Shown here: piece by piece, positions 12,873-25,440 of the stretch | Numbering within the stretch: the first letter of the stretch is position 1 | How the letters are laid out: each line of letters begins with the position of its first letter | Assembly: GCF_000010065.1 (NCBI RefSeq) | Contig: NC_006576.1 | Location: 450,001 to 482,000 of the forward strand | Length of the DNA: 32,000 nucleotides | Reading direction: 5' to 3' | From: Synechococcus elongatus PCC 6301 | Lineage (GTDB): Bacteria > Cyanobacteriota > Cyanobacteriia > Synechococcales > Synechococcaceae | The notes under the pieces: model-generated | The model's database searches: none | Seen by the model: the letters and a program-made list of their open reading frames with translations, nothing else | Told to the model about the DNA's origin: nothing | Translations under genes and position numbers: made by a program

Positions 12873-13391
12873 ATGGCAAGCGCACCTTGGGTTTTTGCCT
12901 ATGGCTCACTGATCTGGCGACCTGATTTTGCTTGGCAGGATCGCCAGCCTGCGGTGCTTCGCGGTTGGAAGCGGCGCTTTTGGCAACTGTCTACAGATCA
13001 CCGCGGTACGCCCAGCCAACCTGGACGGGTTGTGACCTTGGTTCCAGATGCACAAGCGGAATGCGTAGGAGTAGCGTTTCAGCTCATGGGTGACGTGGGT
13101 GCTATCCTCACGGCGCTCGACTATCGCGAGAAAGATGGTTATGACCGTCAAGAACTGGTGATTGAACTGCAGGATCAACGACAGGTCACAGCGATCGTCT
13201 ACGTTGCGCAAGCTCAGAATCCGCGCTTTGCTGGCCCAACCCCTGTCCCTGCGATCGCTGATCAAGTGCGACGCAGCTATGGCCCTAGTGGCAGTAACGC
13301 CGAGTATGTACTGCGACTCGACCAAGCGCTAACAGCTTTGGGCTGGGAAGACCCCCATGTGCGAGCGATCGCCAATCTTGTGGCAGCCTGA
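12873..13391 (+). CDS. ChaC-family gamma-glutamylcyclotransferase
   Basis: The 172-aa ORF has WVFAYGSLIW (the YGSLxW motif) and LDYREKDGY (catalytic Glu region). Confidence 0.85.
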   Translation: MASAPWVFAYGSLIWRPDFAWQDRQPAVLRGWKRRFWQLSTDHRGTPSQPGRVVTLVPDAQAECVGVAFQLMGDVGAILTALDYREKDGYDRQELVIELQDQRQVTAIVYVAQAQNPRFAGPTPVPAIADQVRRSYGPSGSNAEYVLRLDQALTALGWEDPHVRAIANLVAA

Positions 13392-13787
13392 GCTCTTCTG
13401 AACCTAATCGTTCAAGTCAGCCAGCTTTGCATCAGCCAAAACTAATTTGCATTGCCTTTGAATTTTAAATACAAAACTGAAAACTCTAGGGATTTGATTG
13501 ACCAGCTCCCAACCCGTTGGGAAGTACCTGTCGATTTTAGGTTGGATGATCTATCACCTGGTTTTCCTCGAAAAACTCAAGCATTACTTTTAAGATAATC
13601 CCGAAAAATTCACTTAAGCAAGCTCAAATTCATCAATCAACCAAAATCGTTCTTAGGAGTAATTTTTGCTTAAAAACATTTCCTTAATAAATCAAGTGAT
13701 CCATTTTTATTTCAGAGAGCTAGCTTATGAGTCAAGGGCGAATCAAAAATTGCTCTTGAGAGTTAAAACACTTAATTGGAGTCTGTC
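13392..13787 (+). promoter_or_regulatory. Long AT-rich non-coding region holding the promoter/5' leader of the GG-peptide operon
   Basis: This ~395-nt stretch has no ORF in the track and very low GC, and lies directly upstream of the first peptide gene. I could not pin down exact -35/-10 elements with confidence. Confidence 0.5.
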
Positions 13788-14066
13788 ATGTCTCAATTCA
13801 TTAATTTGATCAACGATCAAAATGCTCAGGAACTTCTAGGCGGAACTACCTACAATCCACCGAGCTATCCTTATCCTTCGTATCCAAAACACAGCTGGTC
13901 GGTTAAGCAGTCTGTGTATGCACCAATCAAGTCCGTAGCAGTTAGTAGTTCTGACGCTACAGCATTCAATATTGGTGTTAAAAATCTCTTCAGCCCACAA
14001 ATTGCTACAGCTACTGCAATTTCTGGAGCTACATCGACAGTTATTGGCGGAACTGTATCTGCCTAA
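13788..14066 (+). CDS. ebfG1: Double-glycine-leader secreted small protein, paralogue 1 (EbfG1-like)
   Basis: ATG at 13788 follows GGAG (13778-13781); the track ORF begins at an upstream TTG at 13776. The 19-aa leader is MSQFINLINDQNAQELLGG, with hydrophobic residues at -4, -7, -12 and -15 relative to GG. The 73-aa mature part has no Cys and is S/T/A/I-rich. Confidence 0.85.
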   Translation: MSQFINLINDQNAQELLGGTTYNPPSYPYPSYPKHSWSVKQSVYAPIKSVAVSSSDATAFNIGVKNLFSPQIATATAISGATSTVIGGTVSA

Positions 14067-14110
14067 AGTTCAATTAGTGGAAAGCATTCGTAAACTAACA
14101 GGAGATAATC

Positions 14111-14401
14111 ATGTCTAAACTCATTAATACTATCGATGACAACCATGCCCAATCCCTTGTGGGAGGGAGTGGTTATTCCATTCCTACGTATCCCAAACAT
14201 CCTTATCCTAACTACTATGGAAAGCCGTCATCGAGCGTTCAGCAGTCGGTTTCAGCGCCGATTACTTCAATTGCTGGCAGCAGCTCTAATGCACTTGCAT
14301 TCAATATTGGATCGTTTAACTTGGCGAGTCCTCAAATTGCTAAAGCAACTGCTGTATCCAGTGCCACTTCACTTGTCTATGGTGGGACTGTTTCAGCTTA
14401 A
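14111..14401 (+). CDS. ebfG2: Double-glycine-leader secreted small protein, paralogue 2 (EbfG2-like)
   Basis: The ATG follows the RBS AGGAG. The leader MSKLINTIDDNHAQSLVGG has the same -4/-7/-12/-15 hydrophobic pattern. The mature part aligns with paralogues 1 and 3 (QSVSAPITS...AFNIG...SPQIAKATAVS.ATS.V.GGTVSA). Confidence 0.85.
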   Translation: MSKLINTIDDNHAQSLVGGSGYSIPTYPKHPYPNYYGKPSSSVQQSVSAPITSIAGSSSNALAFNIGSFNLASPQIAKATAVSSATSLVYGGTVSA

Positions 14402-14415
14402 CTAGGCTGACATAG

Positions 14416-14449
14416 TGAAATGCTCATTACAGAGTTGATGAGCATTTCA
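14416..14449 (+). promoter_or_regulatory. Perfect 12-bp stem-loop between peptide genes 2 and 3
   Basis: TGAAATGCTCAT (14416-14427) pairs with ATGAGCATTTCA (14438-14449) around a 10-nt loop. There is no clear U-tract downstream (TTACTCCTTC). Confidence 0.6.
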
Positions 14450-14478
14450 TTACTCCTTCACTTTATGAGGAACGAATT

Positions 14479-14754
14479 GTGAATCAGTGGCTTGAGTCTA
14501 TCAATGATGATACTGCTCAACAGCTCTTGGGCGGTAAATTCTGGGGGAATAAATGGGGATTATATAAGCCCTCTAAGCCGATCTTAGGAATTGGTCAGAG
14601 TGTGACATCTCCAATTCAATCAAGTGCGATTAGTATTTCTAGAGCTACCGCAATTAATATTTCTATATTTAGCAACAATAGTCCTCAGATTGCTACTGCA
14701 ACATCTATCTCTGGTTCAACTTCTTTTGTAGAGGGTGGAGCAGTTACAGCCTAA
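14479..14754 (+). CDS. ebfG3: Double-glycine-leader secreted small protein, paralogue 3 (EbfG3-like)
   Basis: The GTG start follows GAGG. The leader is MNQWLESINDDTAQQLLGG with the same hydrophobic spacing. The mature part shares GQSVTSPIQS...NSPQIATATSISGSTS.VEGGAVTA with paralogues 1 and 2. Confidence 0.8.
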   Translation: MNQWLESINDDTAQQLLGGKFWGNKWGLYKPSKPILGIGQSVTSPIQSSAISISRATAINISIFSNNSPQIATATSISGSTSFVEGGAVTA

Positions 14755-14901
14755 CCAAAAACTAATTAAAACAATATACTCATTAGACCTATAAATCTAC
14801 TTGTATTATGAACTTTTAAGTACACATTTAAACTATTTTATTTGCGATTATATTTCTTTAGTTTTATGTCTTGTTGTTCAATGTTGTTTGAGGGCATCGA
14901 T

Positions 14902-15150
14902 ATGCAAGTTGAATTTGATTTGATTACAGATTTGTCAGATGGGCAAGCTGAGATGGTGACAGGAGCATTATTGCAAACAGCCAATTCAGTAGCAGCAGCA
15001 ATTGCAAAATCAACTGCGATCGCTCCTACTGGGATTGCAATTAGTGCAGGAACTGTCGCCAATGCACTTTCTATTGCTCAGAATATTGGTGTGAGTACAG
15101 TCACATCACCTTCTATACGAGTCCCCATTAACGTAGCTGTCAATCTTTAG
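14902..15150 (+). CDS. ebfG4: Divergent GG-type (Gly-Ala) leader secreted small hydrophobic protein (EbfG4-like)
   Basis: The track ORF starts at 14842. ATG at 14902 follows GAGGG (14890-14894). The 22-aa leader MQVEFDLITDLSDGQAEMVTGA has V-4, A-7, L-12 and I-15. The 60-aa mature part is A/I/V/S/T-rich with no Cys. In-frame ATGs at 14866 and 14881 are alternative starts. Confidence 0.7.
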   Translation: MQVEFDLITDLSDGQAEMVTGALLQTANSVAAAIAKSTAIAPTGIAISAGTVANALSIAQNIGVSTVTSPSIRVPINVAVNL

Positions 15151-15182
15151 CCAGTGCGATCGCAAGTATTTGGACTCTGGAA

Positions 15183-15223
15183 ATTGAGGGTGGGTAATAC
15201 CACTCTCAATCTCTGATATTTTT
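15183..15223 (+). terminator. Candidate attenuator/partial terminator between the peptide genes and the exporter gene
   Basis: An 11-bp stem, ATTGAGGGTGG (15183-15193) with CCACTCTCAAT (15200-15210, one G-U), has a 6-nt loop. TTTTT (15219-15223) follows 8 nt downstream. Confidence 0.4.
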
Positions 15224-15244
15224 CATCCTTCACTCTTAAGTATC

Positions 15245-17389
15245 GTGAAATATGCATGTATTCGGCAACAAAGTGAAGAGGACTGTGGAGCGGCCTGCAT
15301 CGCAACAGTTGCAAAATACTATGGCCGTCACTTTGCACTCAATCGAGTACGGGAAATTGTCGGCACAGGTTCGCAGGGAACTTCTCTGTTAGGACTTCGT
15401 AGGGGTGCTGAATCTTTAGGATTCAATGCTCGTCAGGTAAGGGCTTCGTTGGAACTCATTGATCATTTAAAAGAAGCACCACTTCCAGCAATCATCCACT
15501 GGAAGGGTTATCACTGGGTGATTTTATATGGCCAAAGGGGAAAGCAATATATCATTGCAGACCCAGGGCTTGGCATACGCTACATCAATCGACATGAGTT
15601 ATTAACTAGCTGGAGTAATGGCGTTATGCTGCTACTTCAGCCAGATAGTGAGAAATTTTACAGTCAAGAAAATGATAAGAATGATAGCTGGATTCGCATT
15701 ATTCGACGGGTTTGGAACTTTAAAACACTCCTGATTCAAGTTGTCATCATTAATATTGTGATTGGTATTTTGGCACTATCAATGCCACTCATGATGCAGT
15801 TTTTAACAGATGATGTCTTGATTAGAAAGGATACACATCTCCTATTCACAGTTGCGATCGCAGTAATTGCGATGAATTTTTTTAGGAATATTATCAATCT
15901 AGTTCAATCTCATCTAGTTGGATATTTTGGCCAAAAGCTACAGCTAGATCTCATTTTGGAGTATGGTCATCGACTTCTCCATTTACCCATGGCTTATTTT
16001 GATAATCATCGCAGTGGAGAAGTGATTAGTCGAATTGGTGATATTCGGCGAATCAATGATCTAGTCTCAAAAATTGTACTTGGCCTGCCCAGCCAGTTCT
16101 TTATTGCCTTGATATCTCTATTCATCATGCTTCGTTACAGCTCAATTTTGACAGCTGCAGCGATTGCCGCATTTTTTGTCGTGACTCTTTTTAATTTAAT
16201 TTTTCTTCCTTTTTTACGACAAAAAAATAAGCAGCTAATTGCTGAATCGTCCGAGAATCAAGGCTTCCTTGTTGAAACTTTTCGTGGAGCTGTCTTGCTG
16301 AAGACAACTCAAGCGATCCATCAAGCATGGGAAGAGTATCAGCAAAACTTTGGCCGACTTTCTTTTTTATCTTGGGGAGCACTCAAGCTAGATATTTATG
16401 CCGGAACTACAACCGATTTTCTATCAACTATAACTAATGTTAGTATTCTCTGGCTAGGCAGTAGCTTGGTCATTGATGGCACGCTAAGTATTGGCCAACT
16501 GCTAGCCTTTAGTGGCTTTAGTGGTAACTTATTAGGCTTTTTATCTGGAACAGTTGCACTTGCTGACGAATTTTTAATTTCGCAGGTTGTCATTCAACGT
16601 TTATCAGAAGTTTTAAGTTCAACCCCAGAGGATACTATCTCCTCTCATAAGCCTTGGATTCAAATTCCTGATGATACTAACATCATCTGCAAGAATGTTA
16701 CTTTCCACCATCCAGGTCGTGTTGATCTACTGAGGAATTTTGATCTAACAATTCCAGGGGGCCTAGTCACTGCTCTAATTGGGCAATCTGGTTGTGGTAA
16801 AAGTACTCTTGCCAAGCTGATTTCTGGCCTCTATCATCTTGACTCTGGAAACATTCAATTTGGCATTTATAACCAACAAGACATTGCTTTAGATTGCTTA
16901 CGTCAACAGGTTGTTTTGGTTCCTCAAGATGCTCATTTCTGGAGTCGTTCTATTGTCGAAAATTTCAAATTTTCTCATCCCAATACATCATTTGAAAATA
17001 TAGTTAAAGCTTGTCGAATCACAATGGCAGATGAATTTATCAATGAACTTCCTGACAAATATCAAACCGTATTAGGTGAATTTGGGGCTAATTTATCGGG
17101 GGGGCAGAGGCAAAGGCTTGCCTTGGCAAGAGCGATTATCAATAATCCACCTGTCTTGATCCTTGACGAGTCTACTAGCGCTCTTGATCCCGTCATGGAA
17201 AGTCAGATCCTTGATAGCCTACTAGCATTTAGAAGAGGTAAAACGACAATTATTATCAGCCACCGGCCACGAGTAATTCAACGTTCTGATTGGATTGCAT
17301 TCCTTGAGAAGGGAGAATTAAAAGCTCAAGGACGTCCAAATGACCTGAAATCACTTGTTGGTGATCATCTTAAGTTTATTGCCCCTTAA
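15245..17389 (+). CDS. pteB: C39 peptidase-domain ABC exporter (bacteriocin/double-glycine peptide processing and export; PteB-like)
   Basis: The 714-aa ORF starts at GTG. The C39 catalytic residues are present: Cys in QQSEEDCGAAC, His in GYHWVILYG and Asp in IIADPG. A six-helix TMD region follows, then Walker A GQSGCGKST, signature LSGGQRQR, Walker B VLILDEST and H-loop ISHR. Confidence 0.92.
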   Translation: MKYACIRQQSEEDCGAACIATVAKYYGRHFALNRVREIVGTGSQGTSLLGLRRGAESLGFNARQVRASLELIDHLKEAPLPAIIHWKGYHWVILYGQRGKQYIIADPGLGIRYINRHELLTSWSNGVMLLLQPDSEKFYSQENDKNDSWIRIIRRVWNFKTLLIQVVIINIVIGILALSMPLMMQFLTDDVLIRKDTHLLFTVAIAVIAMNFFRNIINLVQSHLVGYFGQKLQLDLILEYGHRLLHLPMAYFDNHRSGEVISRIGDIRRINDLVSKIVLGLPSQFFIALISLFIMLRYSSILTAAAIAAFFVVTLFNLIFLPFLRQKNKQLIAESSENQGFLVETFRGAVLLKTTQAIHQAWEEYQQNFGRLSFLSWGALKLDIYAGTTTDFLSTITNVSILWLGSSLVIDGTLSIGQLLAFSGFSGNLLGFLSGTVALADEFLISQVVIQRLSEVLSSTPEDTISSHKPWIQIPDDTNIICKNVTFHHPGRVDLLRNFDLTIPGGLVTALIGQSGCGKSTLAKLISGLYHLDSGNIQFGIYNQQDIALDCLRQQVVLVPQDAHFWSRSIVENFKFSHPNTSFENIVKACRITMADEFINELPDKYQTVLGEFGANLSGGQRQRLALARAIINNPPVLILDESTSALDPVMESQILDSLLAFRRGKTTIIISHRPRVIQRSDWIAFLEKGELKAQGRPNDLKSLVGDHLKFIAP

Positions 17390-17430
17390 TTCCTTTGAAT
17401 TGAGTTATTTAATCTTGCTGGAGGCTCCCA

Positions 17431-19134
17431 ATGAACGTCAGCGATCAATTAATTAACTGCTATCTAGAAATTGAGAGAAACTACTTAAATGGTCATTTGG
17501 AAGCAGCAGAAGAATTATCAGATCAGCTAGTCAAACAACAACCCCAAAATCCTCATTTAAGACTTCTGAGAGGTCACATATACTATAGCCTTGGTGAATT
17601 AAAAAAGGCCCGATATGAATATGAGTTGACTAGGGGGTTGACTGCCGATGAAGATTTGATTGAACAGTCACTTAACGGCTTAGAGCGATGCGATAGTCTT
17701 CATCCTGACAGAGCTGCTAGCTCAAGCGATGCAACCATTATTTTTCCCCGTCATGCAGTCATTGCTGCTTCCAGTCTTGAGCAGTCTTTCTTAAAGAACC
17801 GGGTTGAGGAGGAGACTAGGGATTATCAGCTGACAACTCAAAATGCTGATGAACCGTCTTTGTCTAGTTTTTCTACTCCTACTTCTGATACTGCCAGTGT
17901 AATTCAAGTGGTCAGTGATGATGAGATTCCAGAAGATTTACATCTCTTGCAGGCTGATGAGTTTCTTCCCCCTGTTAACCATTGGTTTCAAATTGCAGGT
18001 ATCAGCTTAGTTCTGGGATTCATTGGGACAATTATTCTTACTTCATTTCTTAAGTATAAAGTCGTTGTTAAGGCACCTGCTCTAATTCGTCCGATTGGGG
18101 AAACACGGCTAGTTCAAGCCGCTGTTGAAGGTAAAGTCCGTCAGATTGCTGTTCGTTCTAACCAAGAAGTCCAGCAAGGTGATCCAATTATTGTTATTGA
18201 TGACTCGCAGCAAATTACCAAGCGAGACCAACTGATTGACAGTATTGCTAAAAATCAACTTAAACTTCAGCAGATTGAGTCTCAAAAAGCTGCGATCGCA
18301 GAGGAAATGCTAGCTGAATCCAATAAAGTAGCGCGGGGCATTGATGTGAATCAAGCTGATATTCAAACGGCAGAGGCTAACTTGGCGCTCGCAGCAGATG
18401 AATATTCTCGCTATCAAACTCTCTCTAATGCTGGGGCGATCGCTGATCTCTTAGTGCAAGAGAAGCTAGCCAGTTTTCGGGTAGCACAAGCCAATTTGAG
18501 CCGCGCGCGCGAGCTAACAGCTCAGACTGAGGAACAGGGTTTAGCCACCCAAGCAAGACTCCGACAGATGCAAGACCAGCTAGCTCAACAAGAATCGGAA
18601 ACGCTACAACAGATCAAAGTGGAGCAAAAAGAACTCCAACAAATGAATATCAACCTAGCAAATACTGTTGTTCGTGCCCCAATTTCTGGGATTATTCAGT
18701 CCATTAACCTGCGCAATCCTGATCAAGTAGTCGGCGTTGGCCAGGAAGTTGCCCGCATTTTTCCAACTCAGAGTGGCTTGACGATTAAAGCATTGGTTCC
18801 TTCACAGAACATTTTGCCCGTCGCACTAGGACAACGTGTGCAACTCCGGATTGCCGCCTGCCCCTATCCGGACTTTGGCACCCTTGATGGCAAAGTCCAG
18901 GCGATCGCACCCGATTCCGGCGGTTCATCTAGTTCGGCAGCACAGACCAATGAACCCGTTGCCGCGAATAGTCAAGCCTATGAAGTGACGATCAAGCCTG
19001 AAGATCGTTCTCTAACTGATGGTCAACGGGTTTGTAAAATCCGTCCTGGGATGGATGCCGAAGCCGACATTATTACCAATGAAGAGACGGTACTCAAATT
19101 TATGCTGAGGAAGGCTCGTTTGCTATGGCGATAA
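17431..19134 (+). CDS. HlyD-family membrane fusion/accessory protein with a 184-aa N-terminal TPR-like cytoplasmic extension
   Basis: The 567-aa ORF has ATG after GGAGG. The TM helix WFQIAGISLVLGFIGTIILTSFL starts at residue 185. It is followed by a typical HlyD lipoyl/coiled-coil/beta-barrel pattern (VVKAPALIRP...VEGKVRQIAV...GDPIIVIDD; VVRAPISGIIQSI). The N-terminus has a TPR-like LRLLRGHIYYSLGELKKARYEYE. Confidence 0.88.
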   Translation: MNVSDQLINCYLEIERNYLNGHLEAAEELSDQLVKQQPQNPHLRLLRGHIYYSLGELKKARYEYELTRGLTADEDLIEQSLNGLERCDSLHPDRAASSSDATIIFPRHAVIAASSLEQSFLKNRVEEETRDYQLTTQNADEPSLSSFSTPTSDTASVIQVVSDDEIPEDLHLLQADEFLPPVNHWFQIAGISLVLGFIGTIILTSFLKYKVVVKAPALIRPIGETRLVQAAVEGKVRQIAVRSNQEVQQGDPIIVIDDSQQITKRDQLIDSIAKNQLKLQQIESQKAAIAEEMLAESNKVARGIDVNQADIQTAEANLALAADEYSRYQTLSNAGAIADLLVQEKLASFRVAQANLSRARELTAQTEEQGLATQARLRQMQDQLAQQESETLQQIKVEQKELQQMNINLANTVVRAPISGIIQSINLRNPDQVVGVGQEVARIFPTQSGLTIKALVPSQNILPVALGQRVQLRIAACPYPDFGTLDGKVQAIAPDSGGSSSSAAQTNEPVAANSQAYEVTIKPEDRSLTDGQRVCKIRPGMDAEADIITNEETVLKFMLRKARLLWR

Positions 19135-19171
19135 TTGGCTTCAATTTCTTGAATCAATTATTGAAGCCAAT
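19134..19171. terminator. Perfect 12-bp inverted repeat between the convergent hlyD-like and ftrV genes
   Basis: ATTGGCTTCAAT (19134-19145) pairs with ATTGAAGCCAAT (19160-19171) around a 14-nt loop. It overlaps the hlyD-like stop codon. No canonical U-tract follows on either strand. Confidence 0.45.
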
Positions 19172-19184
19172 CAAAAATACATAT

Positions 19185-19406
19185 TTAGATGACCTCTAGC
19201 TCGAAGTCACGTAAATGTGCACGAAACTTATTGGAAAAGCTCACGAGATAGGGAAAGTTTGCACTAATGGGCTTACCATTCCACTCAGTTAGAATCGCTG
19301 CAATTTCGCCTTCCGCGTCTTTTAAGTCAAAGGCTTGATTTCGATGATCAGGATGGTGATACACCACCACTGATTCTTTGACTCGCACGCGATCGCCAAC
19401 GTTCAT
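19185..19406 (-). CDS. ftrV: Ferredoxin-thioredoxin reductase variable subunit
   Basis: The 73-aa ORF reads MNVGDRVRVKESVVVYHHPDHRNQAFDLKDAEGEIAAILTEWNGKPISANFPYLV. This closely resembles the cyanobacterial FtrV sequences I recall. Confidence 0.88.
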   Translation of the reverse strand: MNVGDRVRVKESVVVYHHPDHRNQAFDLKDAEGEIAAILTEWNGKPISANFPYLVSFSNKFRAHLRDFELEVI

Positions 19407-19544
19407 AACAGCTTAATGAGGCAGAGACGACAACACAGCTTGAGGCCCAGAGACCTGAGCACTGCTAGAAGCAACCTCTATCTTCCCATAGTCTCTGAGC
19501 TTGCTAGCAGAGAGCCATCATTCTGAGGAGCAGGGCCCAAGACT

Positions 19545-22366: not shown

Positions 22367-23455
22367 TCAAACAATGGCAAGACTGGTGAGGTCGCCCTGA
22401 AAACCGGTGATTTCAATCAGGAGATCACGCTCAGCTTGAAACCCAGCTAAGTCATCATTGAAAGCCACAAAAGTTCGCTGCTCGATTTGAAAGGTTGCCG
22501 CACCATTGGCCATGAAACGATCAGGCGTCAGCACCGCCACGAGTGACTCTGGGTCGAGGCTGCTCACTGTACCCACGTTACTGATTTCTGTCGCACTGAC
22601 AGAATTAGGGCCAACCAAGCGATCGCTGCCGATTTGAAAGTCGGTTATCTGATCAAAACCTGATAGTTGTGAATCTGCGATCGCTCGGTAGAGAAACTGA
22701 TCTTGCCCTGCTCCACCAGTCAATGTATCCGCGCCGAGTTCCCCAATTAGATTGTCATCCCCATTTCCAGCAGTTAGCAAATCGTTGCCGTTAGTACCGA
22801 TCAGCGTAAAAGCCTCGCTACTACTGAGCTGGTTATCATCATTACCCTTGACGATAGACCGTGCTTCACTGATCGCGATCGCGGTAGCTGGGGAACCGGA
22901 ACTCACTACAACCTGCTGAGCGATCGCAGTGACTTGAAGAGCGTTGGGCAAACTCGAATCATCACCAGTCACTTGAGCAAGCAAGGCTTGCACGGTTGGC
23001 AAAGCGATTGGGTTTTTAGAGAAGTCATAAGCTTCAATTTCCTCAAGGCTATCTAGTGATCTGGTGAATAGATCAGCCACTAGAACTTTATTGAGAAAAG
23101 TCTGAGCATCTCGGCTGCCCTCTTCAATCCCCTCAACAATCGCGATCGCTAAATTGGCTAAGCTGAGCCGGCCAGATTCCAACTCTTTGACATAGAAATC
23201 TTGACCGATGGGATCAGCGTCGCGGTTCAGAATTGTTTGGAAGAGCGTATTGACAGCCTCAGCGGCAGACAAAGAGCTGAATCGCAAGAAAGACTCTACT
23301 GACTCACCAAAGGCTTCAGCGATCGCCCCGTAGTTAAGGGTGCTGAGATTGTCCTGAACGATCACATCCCAAAATTTTTGACCTGCAGGATCTGCTGGCC
23401 GACCATAAAAAGCAACATAGAGCTGCTGAGCAGAAGTAATCTTCAGATTAGCCAT
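22367..23455 (-). CDS. Secreted DUF4214-like plus RTX (hemolysin-type Ca-binding repeat) protein
   Basis: In this 362-aa ORF the N-terminal half (YVAFYGRPADPAGQKFW...LFQTILNRDADPIGQDFYV) looks like DUF4214. Residues ~220-255 (GTNGNDLLTAGNGDDNLIGELGADTLTGGAGQDQF) are GGxGxD nonapeptide repeats. There is no N-terminal signal peptide, consistent with type I secretion. Confidence 0.75.
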   Translation of the reverse strand: MANLKITSAQQLYVAFYGRPADPAGQKFWDVIVQDNLSTLNYGAIAEAFGESVESFLRFSSLSAAEAVNTLFQTILNRDADPIGQDFYVKELESGRLSLANLAIAIVEGIEEGSRDAQTFLNKVLVADLFTRSLDSLEEIEAYDFSKNPIALPTVQALLAQVTGDDSSLPNALQVTAIAQQVVVSSGSPATAIAISEARSIVKGNDDNQLSSSEAFTLIGTNGNDLLTAGNGDDNLIGELGADTLTGGAGQDQFLYRAIADSQLSGFDQITDFQIGSDRLVGPNSVSATEISNVGTVSSLDPESLVAVLTPDRFMANGAATFQIEQRTFVAFNDDLAGFQAERDLLIEITGFQGDLTSLAIV

Positions 23456-23534
23456 AATATTTAACTCTCAGAGACTTAAACTTAGAAGAGTCTGGAGACT
23501 AGCCCAGAAATAATAAGGCTGGAAATTTTTGGCC

Positions 23535-23547
23535 GCCTAAATCAATT
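23535..23547. repeat. Direct repeat copy 1 (GCCTAAATCAATT)
   Basis: This exact 13-nt sequence is repeated at 23710-23722. Each copy is preceded by GAGACTAGC (about 23496 and 23692). Confidence 0.5.
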
Positions 23548-23709
23548 AAATCCTGTACTTATTGCCAGACTCTAGATCACGACCTCTAGGTTTATTTAGT
23601 CACTATTGTTACTTTGGGATAGCTTTTTGAGAAGGTGCAATTTAAGATTAATTTACTGCAACTTTATTGTGCGTTAAATTAATAGTATTAGAGACTAGCT
23701 ATGATAATA

Positions 23710-23722
23710 GCCTAAATCAATT
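23710..23722. repeat. Direct repeat copy 2 (GCCTAAATCAATT)
   Basis: Exact match to 23535-23547, within the same AT-rich intergenic region. Confidence 0.5.
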
Positions 23723-23889
23723 TCAGAGATTCTTGGTCAAGATATCCAAAAGATTAGTCAGCAGAATTTACAACCTAGATAGCCCAATCATCCCAAAATT
23801 AAAGATTAGACGTAGAGCGTCAATCCCAATTTAGCGAAACGTCTTTGTTAGATGCTGATCGAGCTCCTGATTTTAGCCTCTATAGAACA

Positions 23890-23927
23890 ACCCGCAGTGC
23901 ATGAGCTAGACGTCATGAACTACGGGT
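23890..23927 (-). terminator. Candidate terminator hairpin downstream of tldD
   Basis: An imperfect hairpin (ACCCG.AGT.CATGA / TCATG.ACT.CGGGT) has 13 bp, two 1x1 mismatches and an 8-nt loop. It lies 35 nt past the tldD stop. On the minus strand TTGTTCTAT follows. Confidence 0.35.
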
Positions 23928-23961
23928 CGATATCTAACATTGCAACGGTTGCTCAGGTTAT

Positions 23962-25440
23962 CTAGCGGCCACCCACAGTGATGGCATCAACCTTGAGGTG
24001 GGGCTGGCCCACCGTCACGTAGACGCTGCCGCTGACTGAGCCGCAGAAGCCCGGTGCGAGACCAAGATCGTTCGAGCACATGGAAATGCGCTGCATGATC
24101 TCGGTTGCCTCACCAATCAAAGTTGCACCCTTCAGCGGCTTTGTGATGCGCCCATTCTCAATCAAATAAGCTTCATCAACGGCAAAGTTAAACTGACCCG
24201 TTGCGCCAACACTACCGCCACCCATCTTCTTGCAGTAGATGCCGCGATCGATTGATCCCAAGAGATCCTCAAAGCGATGAGGTCCCGGGGCAATGTAGGT
24301 GTTGCGCATCCGCGAAGCCGCTGCGTAGGTGTAGTTACTCCGGCGACCACTGCCAGTTCGGGGTTGGCCTGTCCGCAGTTCCCCCGCGCGATCAGCGATG
24401 AAGTTTTTGAGGATGCCATTTTCGATCAGCAAGGTGCGCTGCACCGGCATGCCTTCGTCATCCATGTCAAGGGTGCCAAAGGCATCGGGCGACAGGCCCT
24501 CATCCCAGGCTGTGACACTGCTGTGCGCGATCGCTTCTCCTTTCTTGTCTTTGAACGGGGTGGTACCGCGCTCAATTTGCGTGGTTTCCAGCAAGTGTCC
24601 ACAGGCTTCGTGGAAAATCACGCCACCAAACTGGTTTGCCAGAATCACCGGATAGGTGCCTGACTCTACAAAATCGGCGTAGAGCATTTGGCCCGCCGAC
24701 TCTGCGACTTCAGCGGCATCCGCTTCAGAATCCCACGATCGCAAAAAGTCAGGATTGCTCGTGTCTCCCACCCGTTTGCCAATCGAGGCACGGTAGCTGC
24801 CATCCGCACAAAGTAGGTTGTAGCCCACGGATTGAGTGAGGCGAATATCTCGCGCAAAGGTCCCATCACTGGCTGCAACCAACACCTCTTGCCAGTCACG
24901 AAAATAGGCGGCCCGGCGAGACTGCGCATGCTTCGCCTGTCGTTGCAGGCGATCGCTCGCGGACAGCAACAGATCACCCATCTCCGCCATGGAGCTACAG
25001 CGGCTTAGCCACTGATCTTTTTGGCGCAGTTGGCCATAGTCGCGCAGCGGTTCCAGATTGACCGGTGGGACAAGGGATTGCGCACTGGGTAATTGCAGGC
25101 CGAGGATCCCTAAAGCTTGTTCGAGCGATCGCTTCAGCCCCTCATAGGACAAGTCATTGGTGCTGACATAGCAATCCGTGGTACCTCGAAACACCCGCAC
25201 CCCTGCACCACTCGCTAGCCGTGGTGACAGGCTGGTCACTGCATCCTCTTCGACTAGGCAGCTAATGTACTGAACGCGCTCGAGGAAAAACTCGACAAAG
25301 CCTGCGCCGGCAGCCCGTCCAAGTCCTAGCAGTTGTGCCAGTGCCGGCGTCCAGCTGCTATCAAAACGCTGGCGATCGCCGGCCGCCAGATCAGCAGCCA
25401 ACGTTAGGGAAAGGGGCGGTGCAACAACCATGGCAAGCAC
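23962..25440 (-). CDS. tldD: TldD-type metallopeptidase (TldD/PmbA family, 'microcin-processing peptidase'-like)
   Basis: The 492-aa ORF has the HExxxH site in [13 protein letters not shown] Gly-rich C-terminal beta region ([23 protein letters not shown]) is typical of the family. Confidence 0.85.

What the first reader, a model, noticed from the sequence alone, without database searches (positions are those of the whole stretch)
13392..19175. AT-rich island encoding four double-glycine-leader peptides, a C39-ABC exporter and an HlyD adaptor: a secreted-peptide system that does not look like a bacteriocin
Directly seen in the sequence:
- A sharp drop from about 58% to about 30% GC begins immediately after the ChaC-like stop.
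- HIP1 sites are nearly absent across the island.
- Four tandem small ORFs have leaders ending in GG or GA, with hydrophobic residues at -4, -7, -12 and -15.
- These are followed by an ABC exporter with an intact C39 Cys/His/Asp triad, then an HlyD-family protein.

Established knowledge: this architecture is the dedicated processing and export machinery for double-glycine peptides, as in class II bacteriocins, competence pheromones and cyanobacterial HetC-type systems.

Unusual points:
- The mature products are large (60-77 aa) and Cys-free.
- They are Ser/Thr/Ala/Ile-rich and beta-prone.
- The locus has no immunity gene, no modification enzyme and no outer-membrane factor.

This argues for secreted structural, matrix or amyloid-type proteins rather than toxins.

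Novelty: from memory, this matches the ebfG1-4/pteB locus of S. elongatus PCC 7942 (Schwarz laboratory). In that system, GG-motif proteins exported by PteB enable biofilm formation. The core system is therefore probably described already, although I cannot verify identity here.
Basis: partly seen in the sequence, partly recalled or inferred. Interest (0 to 1): 0.85.

Follow-up and report, generated by a model that had tools for sequence, protein, structure and literature searches.

The report
Known ebfG–pteB biofilm secretion locus

Summary
The island is real. It holds four tandem GG/GA-leader genes (13788-15150), a C39-peptidase ABC exporter (15245-17389) and an HlyD adaptor (17431-19134). 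They sit between chaC and ftrV in DNA of 41% GC, against 57% in the flanks.

It is the published ebfG1-4/pteB/hlyD system of S. elongatus. The three secreted N-terminal peptides reported by mass spectrometry (Parnasa 2016) match the window exactly, each directly after GG, GG or GA. EbfG2 and EbfG4 are 100% identical to S. elongatus proteins. The window is 99.9% identical to S. elongatus assemblies.

The literature already shows:
- PteB Cys-dependent secretion
- amyloid formation by EbfG1-3
- surface and matrix localisation of EbfG4
- co-regulation of hlyD
- a requirement for EbfE, which lies at 23962-25440

- The EbfG family is confined to the S. elongatus clade.
- The exporter's nearest relatives are in low-GC Nostocales and Pleurocapsales, some on plasmids.
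- The HlyD has a clade-specific cytoplasmic TPR extension.
- An invariant palindrome and conserved hairpins mark candidate regulatory sites.

Verdict: already known, low interest.

The parts
13392..13787 (+). chaC-ebfG1 intergenic region, the putative promoter and 5' leader of the ebfG operon. It contains an invariant palindrome TCCCAAC-NN-GTTGGGA at 13507-13522 and a highly conserved block at about 13663-13787.
   Evidence: Five-lineage alignment A3. The palindrome is unique in the window. It is present in all 7 ebfG-bearing loci fetched by then and absent from the 80 Nostoc-type loci. There is no Rfam match and no covariation support for an RNA fold of the proximal block. Its function is inferred, not shown.
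13788..14066 (+). ebfG1: 92-aa precursor with a 19-aa GG leader and a 73-aa mature protein that starts TTYNPPSYPYPSYPK.
   Evidence: The published secreted peptide matches exactly (PMC4997328).
14111..14401 (+). ebfG2: 96-aa precursor with a 19-aa GG leader and a 77-aa mature protein that starts SGYSIPTYPK. It contains the published amyloid hot spot LAFNIG.
   Evidence: It is 100% identical to an S. elongatus protein. Supporting papers: PMC4997328 and PMC9981879.
14416..14449 (+). Conserved 14-bp stem-loop in the ebfG2-ebfG3 spacer. It is a candidate intra-operon RNA processing, stabilising or attenuating element.
   Evidence: RNAalifold on 4 lineages: 14 pairs, 4 of them with compensatory double changes. 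The single-sequence fold of the whole 77-nt spacer is -25.2 kcal/mol. Its function is inferred.
14479..14754 (+). ebfG3: 91-aa precursor with a GTG start, a 19-aa GG leader and a 72-aa mature protein.
   Evidence: The GTG start and leader are conserved in L001 and L086.
14902..15150 (+). ebfG4 (Synpcc7942_1134): 82-aa precursor with a 22-aa GA leader and a 60-aa mature protein that starts LLQTANSVAAAIAK.
   Evidence: The published secreted peptide matches exactly. It is 100% identical to an S. elongatus protein annotated at 89 aa. The upstream ATG at 14881 is not conserved in L001, which favours the 14902 start.
15183..15224 (+). Conserved 11-bp GC-rich stem-loop (15183-15210) followed by a T-rich tail, directly after the ebfG4 stop. 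It is a candidate partial terminator separating ebfG1-4 from pteB-hlyD.
   Evidence: conserved in 4 lineages, with one compensatory pair and G-U/A-U changes. Its function is inferred. The papers describe both an 'ebfG-operon' and pteB being 'cistronic' with it.
15245..17389 (+). pteB (Synpcc7942_1133): a 714-aa peptidase-containing ABC transporter. It has a C39 domain (Gln8, Cys14, His90, Asp106), six-helix ABC transmembrane region and a nucleotide-binding domain.
   Evidence: Pfam. Full-length alignment to PCAT1 4ry2, E=4e-108. A published Cys-to-Ala mutant loses biofilm formation and EbfG secretion (PMC4997328).
17431..19134 (+). hlyD (Synpcc7942_1132): a 567-aa membrane-fusion adaptor. Its parts are a cytoplasmic TPR-like helical domain (residues about 1-90), a variable linker (91-185), a TM helix at about 188, and a periplasmic HlyD domain.
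   Evidence: Pfam HlyD_3, HlyD_D23, Biotin_lipoyl_2 and weak TPR. NCBIfam type_I_hlyD E=7e-43, below the curated cutoff. Domain conservation is, TM position and the AF2 helices. It is named hlyD and is co-regulated with the ebfG genes in PMC11345509.
19135..19170 (.). 11-bp inverted repeat between the convergent hlyD and ftrV genes, a candidate bidirectional terminator.
   Evidence: Fold of -13.3 kcal/mol, with an equivalent hairpin in L001. Its function is inferred.
22367..23455 (-). Synpcc7942_1128 (assigned by gene count): a 362-aa DUF4214 + RTX Ca-binding repeat + 'bluetail' putative surface protein. It lies outside the finding but is transcriptionally grouped with ebfG4, pteB and hlyD.
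   Evidence: Pfam and NCBIfam bluetail, E=6e-18. Biofilm-1 iModulon membership comes from PMC11420160. Its role is not tested.
23962..25440 (-). ebfE (Synpcc7942_1127, assigned by gene count): a TldD/PmbA-family metallopeptidase that published work shows is required for EbfG secretion.
   Evidence: Pfam PmbA_TldD domains 1-3 and NCBIfam TldD, E=5e-74. The papers place 1127/EbfE in the same cluster.

Best explanation
The region is the ebfG1-4/pteB/hlyD biofilm-enabling secretion locus of Synechococcus elongatus (Synpcc7942_1134 to 1132, plus three genes long left unannotated).

Mechanism:
1. The four small genes are transcribed together when a secreted, pilus-dependent biofilm inhibitor is absent.
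2. Each precursor carries a double-glycine leader. The C39 domain of the ABC transporter PteB recognises the leader and cuts directly after GG or GA.
3. PteB, working with the HlyD adaptor, exports the 60-77-aa mature proteins. An unlinked outer-membrane channel and the nearby TldD-like peptidase EbfE are presumed to take part as well.
4. Outside the cell, EbfG1-3 assemble as amyloid-type fibres and EbfG4 sits on the cell surface and in the matrix. Together they enable biofilm formation.

Shown experimentally in the literature:
- the requirement for the GG motifs
- Cys-dependent secretion
- the cleavage sites of EbfG1, EbfG2 and EbfG4
- amyloid formation by EbfG1-3
- localisation of EbfG4
- co-regulation of pteB and hlyD

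Shown here:
- identity of the window with that locus
- the anatomy and catalytic residues
- the family's distribution

Inferred:
- involvement of an outer-membrane factor
- the roles of the HlyD TPR domain, the palindrome and the intergenic hairpins
- horizontal origin of the exporter module
For: - Identity: three published secreted peptides match exactly, directly after the predicted cleavage sites.
- EbfG2 and EbfG4 are 100% identical to S. elongatus proteins.
- The window is 99.87-99.95% identical over 11-20 kb to five assemblies carrying the same genes.
- HIP1 is at 3.2/kb in the flanks, the density that PMC3025956 uses as this genome's signature motif.
- Machinery: C39 + ABC + HlyD domains, with a full-length match to PCAT1 and conserved catalytic motifs.
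- The published amyloid hot-spot motif A-[F/I]-N-I-[G/S] is present in window EbfG1-3, with AQNIG in EbfG4, and is kept in most EbfG1-3 homologues of the other lineages; the divergent first copy of L085 has AANIS.
- AF2 finds no confident monomer fold for mature EbfG2 (pLDDT 42). This is compatible with a disordered, aggregation-prone protein but proves nothing on its own.
Against: - Nothing found here contradicts the explanation.
- The window is not base-for-base identical to the assemblies compared (about 0.1% differences). Its HlyD has Arg107 where all others have Ser, so the exact strain is undetermined.
- The cleavage site of EbfG3 was not observed by mass spectrometry in the paper read.
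- Amyloid formation was shown in a heterologous E. coli system, not in the native biofilm.
- No outer-membrane component has been identified.
Confidence: 0.96

Rival explanations
1. A class II bacteriocin or microcin locus. On this reading the four GG-leader products are antimicrobial peptides exported by a dedicated PCAT and adaptor, and the biofilm phenotype is secondary.
For: - The GG leaders and the C39-ABC + HlyD architecture are those of bacteriocin and microcin exporters.
- TldD-family peptidases mature microcin B17 in E. coli (established knowledge), and one lies nearby.
- A 2026 paper reports microcins that self-assemble and promote biofilm in Acinetobacter (PMC13188072, listed, not read). 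The two roles therefore need not exclude each other.
Against: - There is no immunity-like gene in the island.
- The mature products are 60-77 aa, Cys-free, rich in Ser, Thr, Ala and Ile, and match no bacteriocin family in Pfam or NCBIfam.
- Published data assign them matrix, amyloid and surface roles.
- RB-TnSeq shows that non-producers are incorporated into biofilms rather than killed.
Confidence: 0.03
2. A peptide-pheromone (quorum-sensing) system like ComC/ComAB. On this reading the exported EbfG products act as signals that switch on biofilm genes, rather than as structural material.
For: - PteB aligns over its full length to ComA (8hf4, E about 1e-90).
- Expression is population-heterogeneous and density dependent.
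Against: - There is no adjacent two-component sensor.
- There are four redundant cargos of 60-77 aa, far larger than known pheromones.
- Amyloid formation and matrix localisation are documented.
- The known extracellular signal in this system is a separate inhibitor of less than 1 kDa.
Confidence: 0.02
3. The low GC reflects a recent, strain-specific horizontally acquired island that is peripheral to the organism's biology.
For: - GC is 0.41 and GC3 is 0.27-0.38, with a 3-fold HIP1 depletion.
- The nearest PteB relatives (64-67% identity) are in low-GC Nostocales and Pleurocapsales, and some sit on conjugative plasmids.
- Synpcc7942_1132 was flagged compositionally as a xenolog in PMC3025956.
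Against: - The island sits at the same chaC/ftrV position, with the same low GC, in a lineage only about 83-85% identical at the nucleotide level (L001). Divergence inside the island is similar to that of the flanks.
- It is also present in three further diverged lineages.
- Any transfer therefore predates the radiation of the clade.
- Delaye et al. themselves found no phylogenetic support for xenology of 1132.
Confidence: 0.1

Closest known systems
EbfG1-4 / PteB / HlyD / EbfE biofilm-enabling secretion system of Synechococcus elongatus PCC 7942 (Schatz 2013; Parnasa 2016, 2019; Frenkel 2023; Suban 2024)
   Same: It is the same locus. The gene order is the same, the three published mature N-terminal peptides match exactly, the amyloid hot-spot motifs are the same, and the flanking genes fit the numbering 1131 ftrV to 1127 ebfE.
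   Different: There are only about 0.1% nucleotide differences from the assemblies compared, including HlyD S107R. The exact strain was not determined.
PCAT1 of Clostridium thermocellum and ComA of Streptococcus (peptidase-containing ABC transporters, solved structures 4ry2 and 8hf4)
   Same: The C39-TMD-NBD architecture matches over the full length, with the same Cys/His/Asp triad and oxyanion Gln motifs. Cleavage is after GG or GA, coupled to export.
   Different: This is a Gram-negative (diderm) setting with an HlyD adaptor. The cargo is 60-77-aa matrix proteins rather than bacteriocins or pheromones. PteB scores below the curated NCBIfam cutoffs of the bacteriocin_ABC and NHLM_micro_ABC1 families.
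HlyB-HlyD-TolC type I secretion
   Same: An ABC transporter is paired with an HlyD-family membrane-fusion protein. The literature calls this system 'type-I like'.
   Different: The substrates carry a cleaved N-terminal GG leader rather than an uncleaved C-terminal signal. The C39 domain is catalytically intact, unlike the C39-like domain of HlyB. No TolC-type gene is in the window. The adaptor carries a 185-residue cytoplasmic TPR-containing extension.
Functional amyloid systems (curli CsgA/CsgB-CsgG; Fap; TasA)
   Same: Secreted small proteins form amyloid-type fibres in the biofilm matrix. There are several paralogous subunits with a possible nucleator and accessory split, as discussed in PMC9981879.
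   Different: There is no sequence relationship to these systems. Export is by a PCAT with an HlyD adaptor, not by Sec plus a dedicated outer-membrane channel. No imperfect-repeat architecture is present.
GG-leader cargo clusters next to PteB-like exporters in Nostocales and Pleurocapsales (Wang et al. 2011 genome mining; Anabaena clusters discussed in PMC12267927)
   Same: The exporter is 64-67% identical. An HlyD gene lies directly downstream in 66 of the 80 loci. One or two GG-leader proteins with 60-100-aa mature parts lie upstream.
   Different: The cargo is unrelated to EbfG: there is no profile hit in any of the 80 loci. Their HlyD partners lack the long cytoplasmic N-terminal extension.

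Membership tests
S. elongatus ebfG1-4/pteB locus | The mature N-termini of EbfG1, EbfG2 and EbfG4 equal the published secreted peptides TTYNPPSYPYPSYPK, SGYSIPTYPK and LLQTANSVAAAIAK. | tested here: met
   Exact strings occur directly after GG, GG and GA in the window ORFs. The peptides are from PMC4997328.
S. elongatus ebfG1-4/pteB locus | Gene order ebfG1-2-3-4, pteB (C39-ABC), hlyD, then ftrV, with ebfE (TldD-like) four genes further on. | tested here: met
   The numbering 1134 to 1127 is consistent.
S. elongatus ebfG1-4/pteB locus | Sequence identity with S. elongatus database entries. | tested here: met
   EbfG2 is 100% identical to 'hypothetical protein [Synechococcus elongatus]'. EbfG4 is 100% identical to 'PCC6311_1186'. 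DNA identity to assemblies is 99.9%. No direct alignment to the PCC 7942 reference chromosome was possible, because the reference did not appear in the genome-contig results.
S. elongatus ebfG1-4/pteB locus | Published amyloid hot-spot motif A-[F/I]-N-I-[G/S] in EbfG1-3 and AQNIG in EbfG4. | tested here: met
   The window has AFNIG, AFNIG, AINIS and AQNIG. The motif is from PMC9981879.
Peptidase-containing ABC transporter (PCAT) | N-terminal C39 domain with catalytic Cys, His and Asp and an oxyanion Gln. | tested here: met
   Pfam Peptidase_C39, E=3.5e-36. Cys14, His90, Asp106 and Gln8 align to the PCAT1 motifs.
Peptidase-containing ABC transporter (PCAT) | ABC exporter transmembrane domain plus nucleotide-binding domain in the same polypeptide. 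| tested here: met
   ABC_membrane E=7e-33 and ABC_tran E=2e-30. The alignment to 4ry2 covers residues 2-710.
Peptidase-containing ABC transporter (PCAT) | Cognate substrates with a double-glycine leader encoded nearby. | tested here: met
   Four GG/GA leaders lie directly upstream.
Class II bacteriocin / microcin locus | A dedicated immunity gene adjacent to the structural genes. | tested here: not met
   There are no further conserved ORFs in 13392-19175 on either strand. The syntenic loci have the same gene set.
Class II bacteriocin / microcin locus | Antimicrobial activity of the mature peptide. | not testable with these tools
   The literature read assigns a matrix role. No antimicrobial assay was found in the papers read.
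Classical type I secretion system (HlyB/HlyD/TolC) | Uncleaved C-terminal secretion signal or RTX substrate. | tested here: not met
   The EbfG substrates use cleaved N-terminal leaders. An RTX-repeat protein does lie 3.2 kb away (22367-23455), but whether it uses PteB/HlyD is unknown.
Classical type I secretion system (HlyB/HlyD/TolC) | An outer-membrane factor of the TolC family. | tested here: inconclusive
   None is encoded in the 32-kb window. It may be encoded elsewhere in the genome.
Curli/Fap-type functional amyloid system | Sequence homology to CsgA/CsgB or FapC, and a dedicated outer-membrane secretion channel. | tested here: not met
   The EbfG proteins have no Pfam or NCBIfam hits, and there is no channel gene in the locus. 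The system resembles a functional amyloid system in how it works, but it is not a member of these families.

The most novel reading that the evidence does not exclude
The locus itself is known, but three features seen here may be undescribed; I found none of them in the papers I read.

1. The HlyD adaptor of the S. elongatus clade has a conserved cytoplasmic N-terminal domain of about 90 residues, TPR-like, plus a linker. This extension is absent from the 64 HlyD partners of the closest PteB homologues. It could act as a cytoplasmic receptor or holdase for the aggregation-prone EbfG precursors.

2. An invariant palindrome, TCCCAAC-NN-GTTGGGA, lies about 270 bp upstream of ebfG1. It is conserved in all five lineages within otherwise diverged sequence. 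It could be the operator of the still-unknown regulator that transmits the extracellular biofilm inhibitor signal.

3. The co-regulated gene Synpcc7942_1128 encodes an RTX/bluetail surface-type protein. It is more likely a further secreted matrix or adhesin component than part of the secretion machinery.
Probability: 0.3. Interest if true: 0.45.

Novelty: already known. Interest (0 to 1): 0.12.

Why it matters
The system matters as the best-studied genetic module for cyanobacterial biofilm formation. It is an unusual case of a bacteriocin-type PCAT exporter being used to deliver amyloid-type matrix proteins as public goods. That was established by the Schwarz and Golden laboratories between 2013 and 2025, so rediscovering it from raw sequence adds no new biology.

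The small additions made here give specialists concrete handles on two open questions in that literature: which regulator represses the ebfG operon, and how amyloidogenic cargo is kept soluble before export. The additions are:
- restriction of the cargo family to the S. elongatus clade
- the Nostocales-like, plasmid-associated affinity of the exporter
- the TPR extension on HlyD
- a candidate operator palindrome
- conserved intra-operon hairpins
- the domain content of Synpcc7942_1128

Tried and rejected
- Riboswitch or known RNA in the leader: an Rfam scan of 13300-19500 at E<=1 found only a chance miRNA hit. RNAalifold of the conserved 125-bp proximal block gave no compensatory pairs. I therefore treat that block as promoter or leader sequence conservation, not a structured RNA.
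- EbfG homologues beyond the clade: a word-indexed search and a full HMMER profile scan of 1.84 billion representatives found only 4 clusters. The three whose contigs I looked up lie at syntenic S. elongatus-type loci. A profile search of ORFs in the 80 PteB-homologue loci found none.
- My first regex scan for upstream GG cargos in those loci was too strict and gave 3 of 69. It was replaced by a regex validated on the window's four leaders.
- Structure prediction: mature EbfG2 gave pLDDT 42 and the HlyD N-terminus gave pLDDT 48 overall, with 56-71 in the helical part. Both are too low for fold searches, so none were run.
- A search for the HlyD N-terminal domain elsewhere returned only near-identical fragments.
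- Exact look-up of the window's HlyD found nothing on record. The cause is a single S107R difference.
- The Parnasa 2019 EbfE paper is not held. EbfE = Synpcc7942_1127 was taken from other papers, and the assignment to 23962-25440 rests on gene order and TldD homology.
- The 58-aa minus-strand gene called between chaC and ebfG1 in L001 has no ORF counterpart in the window and was dismissed as a spurious call.
- A recent strain-specific island was rejected, because a lineage about 84% identical has the same island at the same site.

Full report
OBSERVATION

The window carries a sharply bounded low-GC tract that starts directly after the ChaC-like stop at 13391. In 100-bp windows, GC falls from 0.58 to 0.35 across that boundary.
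- The tract 13392-19175 averages 0.414 GC, against 0.569 to the left and 0.559 to the right.
- GC3 of the island genes is 0.27-0.38, against 0.51-0.63 for the flanking genes.
- HIP1 (GCGATCGC) occurs about 90 times in the window. Only 6 copies lie in the island: 1.04/kb against 3.17/kb outside, binomial P=0.0016. This is a real depletion, but HIP1 is not 'nearly absent'.
- The low-GC tract runs on through ftrV (GC 0.45) to about 19450.

ANATOMY

All the genes below are on the + strand.
- Four small genes: ebfG1 13788-14066, ebfG2 14111-14401, ebfG3 14479-14754 (GTG start, conserved in relatives) and ebfG4 14902-15150.
- Their leaders are 19, 19, 19 and 22 residues and end in GG, GG, GG and GA. 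All have hydrophobic or small residues at -4, -7, -12 and -15, and a regex for that pattern hits all four.
- The mature parts are 73, 77, 72 and 60 aa and contain no Cys.
- EbfG1-3 are paralogues, 50-64% identical as precursors. EbfG4 is distant at 27%.
- Next comes a 714-aa protein with Peptidase_C39, ABC_membrane and ABC_tran domains. It aligns over residues 2-710 to the bacteriocin transporter PCAT1 (4ry2, E=4e-108) with the catalytic motifs conserved. This gives Gln8, Cys14, His90 and Asp106.
- After that comes a 567-aa HlyD-family adaptor.
- No other credible ORF, immunity-like gene, modification enzyme or outer-membrane factor lies within the finding's coordinates. No outer-membrane factor lies anywhere in the 32 kb.

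IDENTITY

Parnasa et al. [quoted passage not shown]
- Each of these strings is present verbatim in the window, directly after GG, GG or GA.
- EbfG2 and EbfG4 are 100% identical to proteins that sources name as Synechococcus elongatus proteins.
- The window is 99.87-99.95% identical over 11-20 kb to five assemblies carrying the same genes, and 98.4% identical to a sixth.
- The downstream gene order fits the published numbering Synpcc7942_1131 to 1127: ftrV, a PP2C-like gene, a 299-aa ORF, a DUF4214/RTX protein and a TldD-like peptidase. That makes the TldD-like gene at 23962-25440 ebfE.

WHAT IS ALREADY KNOWN ABOUT HOW IT WORKS (from the papers read)
- Deleting ebfG1-4 abolishes biofilm formation in a pilus-assembly mutant. 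GG-to-AA changes in single genes reduce it, and the quadruple change abolishes it.
- The PteB Cys-to-Ala mutant is planktonic and secretes far less EbfG.
- The four genes are co-transcribed and are repressed by a secreted inhibitor of less than 1 kDa.
- EbfG1-3 give amyloid phenotypes in the C-DAG assay and EbfG2 forms fibrils. EbfG4 is found on the cell surface and in the matrix. Only about a quarter of cells express the operon strongly.

The published hot-spot motif A-[F/I]-N-I-[G/S] is present in the window's EbfG1-3, with AQNIG in EbfG4.

(a) Distribution of the cargo
- A full HMMER profile scan of 1.84 billion representative proteins found only four clusters.
- The contigs I looked up for these and for the word-search hits are syntenic S. 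elongatus-type loci.
- One lineage, L001, is only about 83-85% identical in DNA. It has the island at the same chaC/ftrV site with the same low GC. Protein identities there are 78-94% for the EbfGs, 95% for PteB and 86% for HlyD, against 94-97% for ChaC and FtrV.
- Another lineage, L085 from a complete 2.78-Mb genome, has three ebfG genes and a different left flank.
- In L004 the EbfG1 and EbfG2 homologues contain three Cys each, so 'Cys-free' is not a family rule.

(b) Origin of the exporter
- The closest PteB relatives outside the clade are 64-67% identical and come from Nostocales, Pleurocapsales and similar low-GC cyanobacteria.
- Equally close copies sit on conjugative Nostoc and Calothrix plasmids.
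- In 66 of the 80 loci an HlyD gene follows directly.
- Many of these loci have one or two upstream GG-leader proteins with 60-100-aa mature parts. None of these is related to EbfG.
- This fits an old horizontal acquisition of the exporter module, or a module swap with clade-specific cargo. It does not prove it. Delaye et al. flagged 1132 compositionally but found no phylogenetic support.

(c) The adaptor
- The S. elongatus HlyD has its TM helix at about residue 188. In 64 HlyD partners of the closest PteB homologues the median position is residue 29.
- The extra cytoplasmic part begins with a TPR-like helical domain of about 90 residues. It gives weak Pfam TPR hits, and AF2 predicts helices over residues 3-96 at pLDDT 56-71.
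- This domain is 75-94% identical across four lineages, as conserved as the periplasmic domain. The linker (91-185) is only 51-60% identical.
- I infer a cytoplasmic cargo-handling role. This is untested.

(d) Regulatory candidates
- In the 396-bp chaC-ebfG1 spacer, a five-lineage alignment shows an invariant palindrome, TCCCAAC-NN-GTTGGGA, at 13507-13522 in otherwise diverged sequence. It also shows a block of about 125 bp before the ATG that is almost invariant.
- The palindrome is unique in the window and present in every ebfG locus fetched by then.
- There is no Rfam family and no covariation in the proximal block.
- Two intergenic stem-loops are conserved with compensatory changes. One is in the ebfG2-ebfG3 spacer at 14416-14449, with 4 of 14 pairs covarying. 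The other directly follows ebfG4 at 15183-15210 and has a T-rich tail.
- A hairpin at 19135-19170 lies between the convergent hlyD and ftrV genes.

(e) Neighbourhood
- The 362-aa protein at 22367-23455 (1128 by gene count) has DUF4214, RTX repeats and a 'bluetail' surface-protein domain.
- It belongs to the same Biofilm-1 iModulon as 1132-1134.
- The 11-mer TGAGAGTTAAA occurs exactly twice in the window, in the leaders of ebfG1 and of this gene. This is suggestive only.

COMPARISON AND VERDICT

In how it works, the system combines a PCAT and adaptor export route (like PCAT1 and ComA) with a functional-amyloid matrix role (like curli). By membership it is the EbfG/PteB system itself and a PCAT. 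It fails the tests for a bacteriocin locus (no immunity gene), for classical T1SS (N-terminal cleaved leader, no TolC-type gene in the window) and for curli or Fap (no homology).

The finding is correct and well read from raw sequence, but it is already known. The residual novelty lies in untested details: the HlyD TPR domain, the palindrome, the hairpins and the nature of 1128. Interest is low.

Noticed in passing
window 13507-13522: An invariant palindrome, TCCCAAC-NN-GTTGGGA, lies about 270 bp upstream of ebfG1. It is conserved in five diverged lineages while the surrounding sequence is not. It is unique in the window and present in all 7 ebfG loci fetched by then. It is a candidate operator for the unknown regulator of the ebfG operon.
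   Followed up: partly
window 13663-13787: An almost invariant block of about 125 bp lies directly upstream of the ebfG1 ATG. It is more conserved than the coding sequence. It has no Rfam match and no covariation, so it is probably a core promoter plus 5' leader.
   Followed up: partly
window 14416-14449 and 15183-15224: There are two conserved intergenic stem-loops with compensatory base changes across lineages. One is in the ebfG2-ebfG3 spacer. The other follows the ebfG4 stop and has a T-rich tail. They could set the relative dosage of ebfG1-2, ebfG3-4 and pteB-hlyD.
   Followed up: partly
window 17431-17990 (HlyD residues 1-187): The adaptor has a cytoplasmic N-terminal extension of about 185 residues: a TPR-like helical domain plus a variable Ser-rich linker. 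It is conserved within the S. elongatus clade and absent from 64 HlyD partners of the closest PteB homologues.
   Followed up: partly
window 22367-23455 (-), upstream region 23456-23961: A 362-aa DUF4214 + RTX-repeat + bluetail-domain protein (Synpcc7942_1128 by gene count) lies behind a 500-bp AT-rich upstream region (GC 0.30-0.44). The literature places 1128 in the same 'Biofilm-1' iModulon as ebfG4, pteB and hlyD. Its domains suggest a secreted surface protein rather than a secretion component.
   Followed up: partly
window 13757-13767 (+) and 23460-23470 (-): The 11-mer TGAGAGTTAAA occurs exactly twice in 32 kb. Both copies lie just upstream of the start codons of co-regulated genes (ebfG1 and the RTX/bluetail gene). 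With n=2 and only partial conservation in other lineages, this may be chance.
   Followed up: partly
window 23962-25440 (-): This TldD/PmbA-family metallopeptidase corresponds to EbfE (Synpcc7942_1127), which published work shows is required for EbfG secretion. No PmbA/TldE partner gene is adjacent.
   Followed up: partly
window 14881-14901: Database entries annotate EbfG4 as 89 aa, starting at the ATG at 14881. That ATG overlaps the Shine-Dalgarno-like GAGGG and is not conserved in L001. The 82-aa form starting at 14902 (22-aa leader) is the conserved one.
   Followed up: partly
L004:654-1285: In one diverged lineage the EbfG1 and EbfG2 homologues each carry three Cys in the Tyr/Pro-rich N-terminal part of the mature protein. 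The Cys-free character is therefore not universal in the family.
   Followed up: no
L085:9241-11080: A complete 2.78-Mb genome (GCA_036630085.1) has only three ebfG genes, including a divergent 82-aa first copy. Its left flank is CorA rather than ChaC, while the right flank (ftrV, PP2C, RTX protein) is conserved.
   Followed up: no
L028, L050, L068, L069, L071 and others, about 1-2 kb upstream of the PteB homologue: Nostoc-type loci encode one or two cargo proteins with a strongly conserved leader (MDTIQQEPLFTELTPEAAATVEGG) and unrelated mature domains of 65-100 aa. Exporters of this clade seem generally to carry small proteins rather than short peptides.
   Followed up: no
window 17749-17751 (HlyD codon 107): The window encodes Arg107 where the five S. 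elongatus assemblies compared, and the diverged lineages, encode Ser. The position is in the variable linker. Because of this difference, the exact protein is not on record in the collection.
   Followed up: partly
window 19185-19406 (-): The core photosynthetic gene ftrV has unusually low GC (0.45; GC3 0.45), and this also holds in the diverged lineage L001. The compositional anomaly therefore does not stop at the hlyD stop codon.
   Followed up: no
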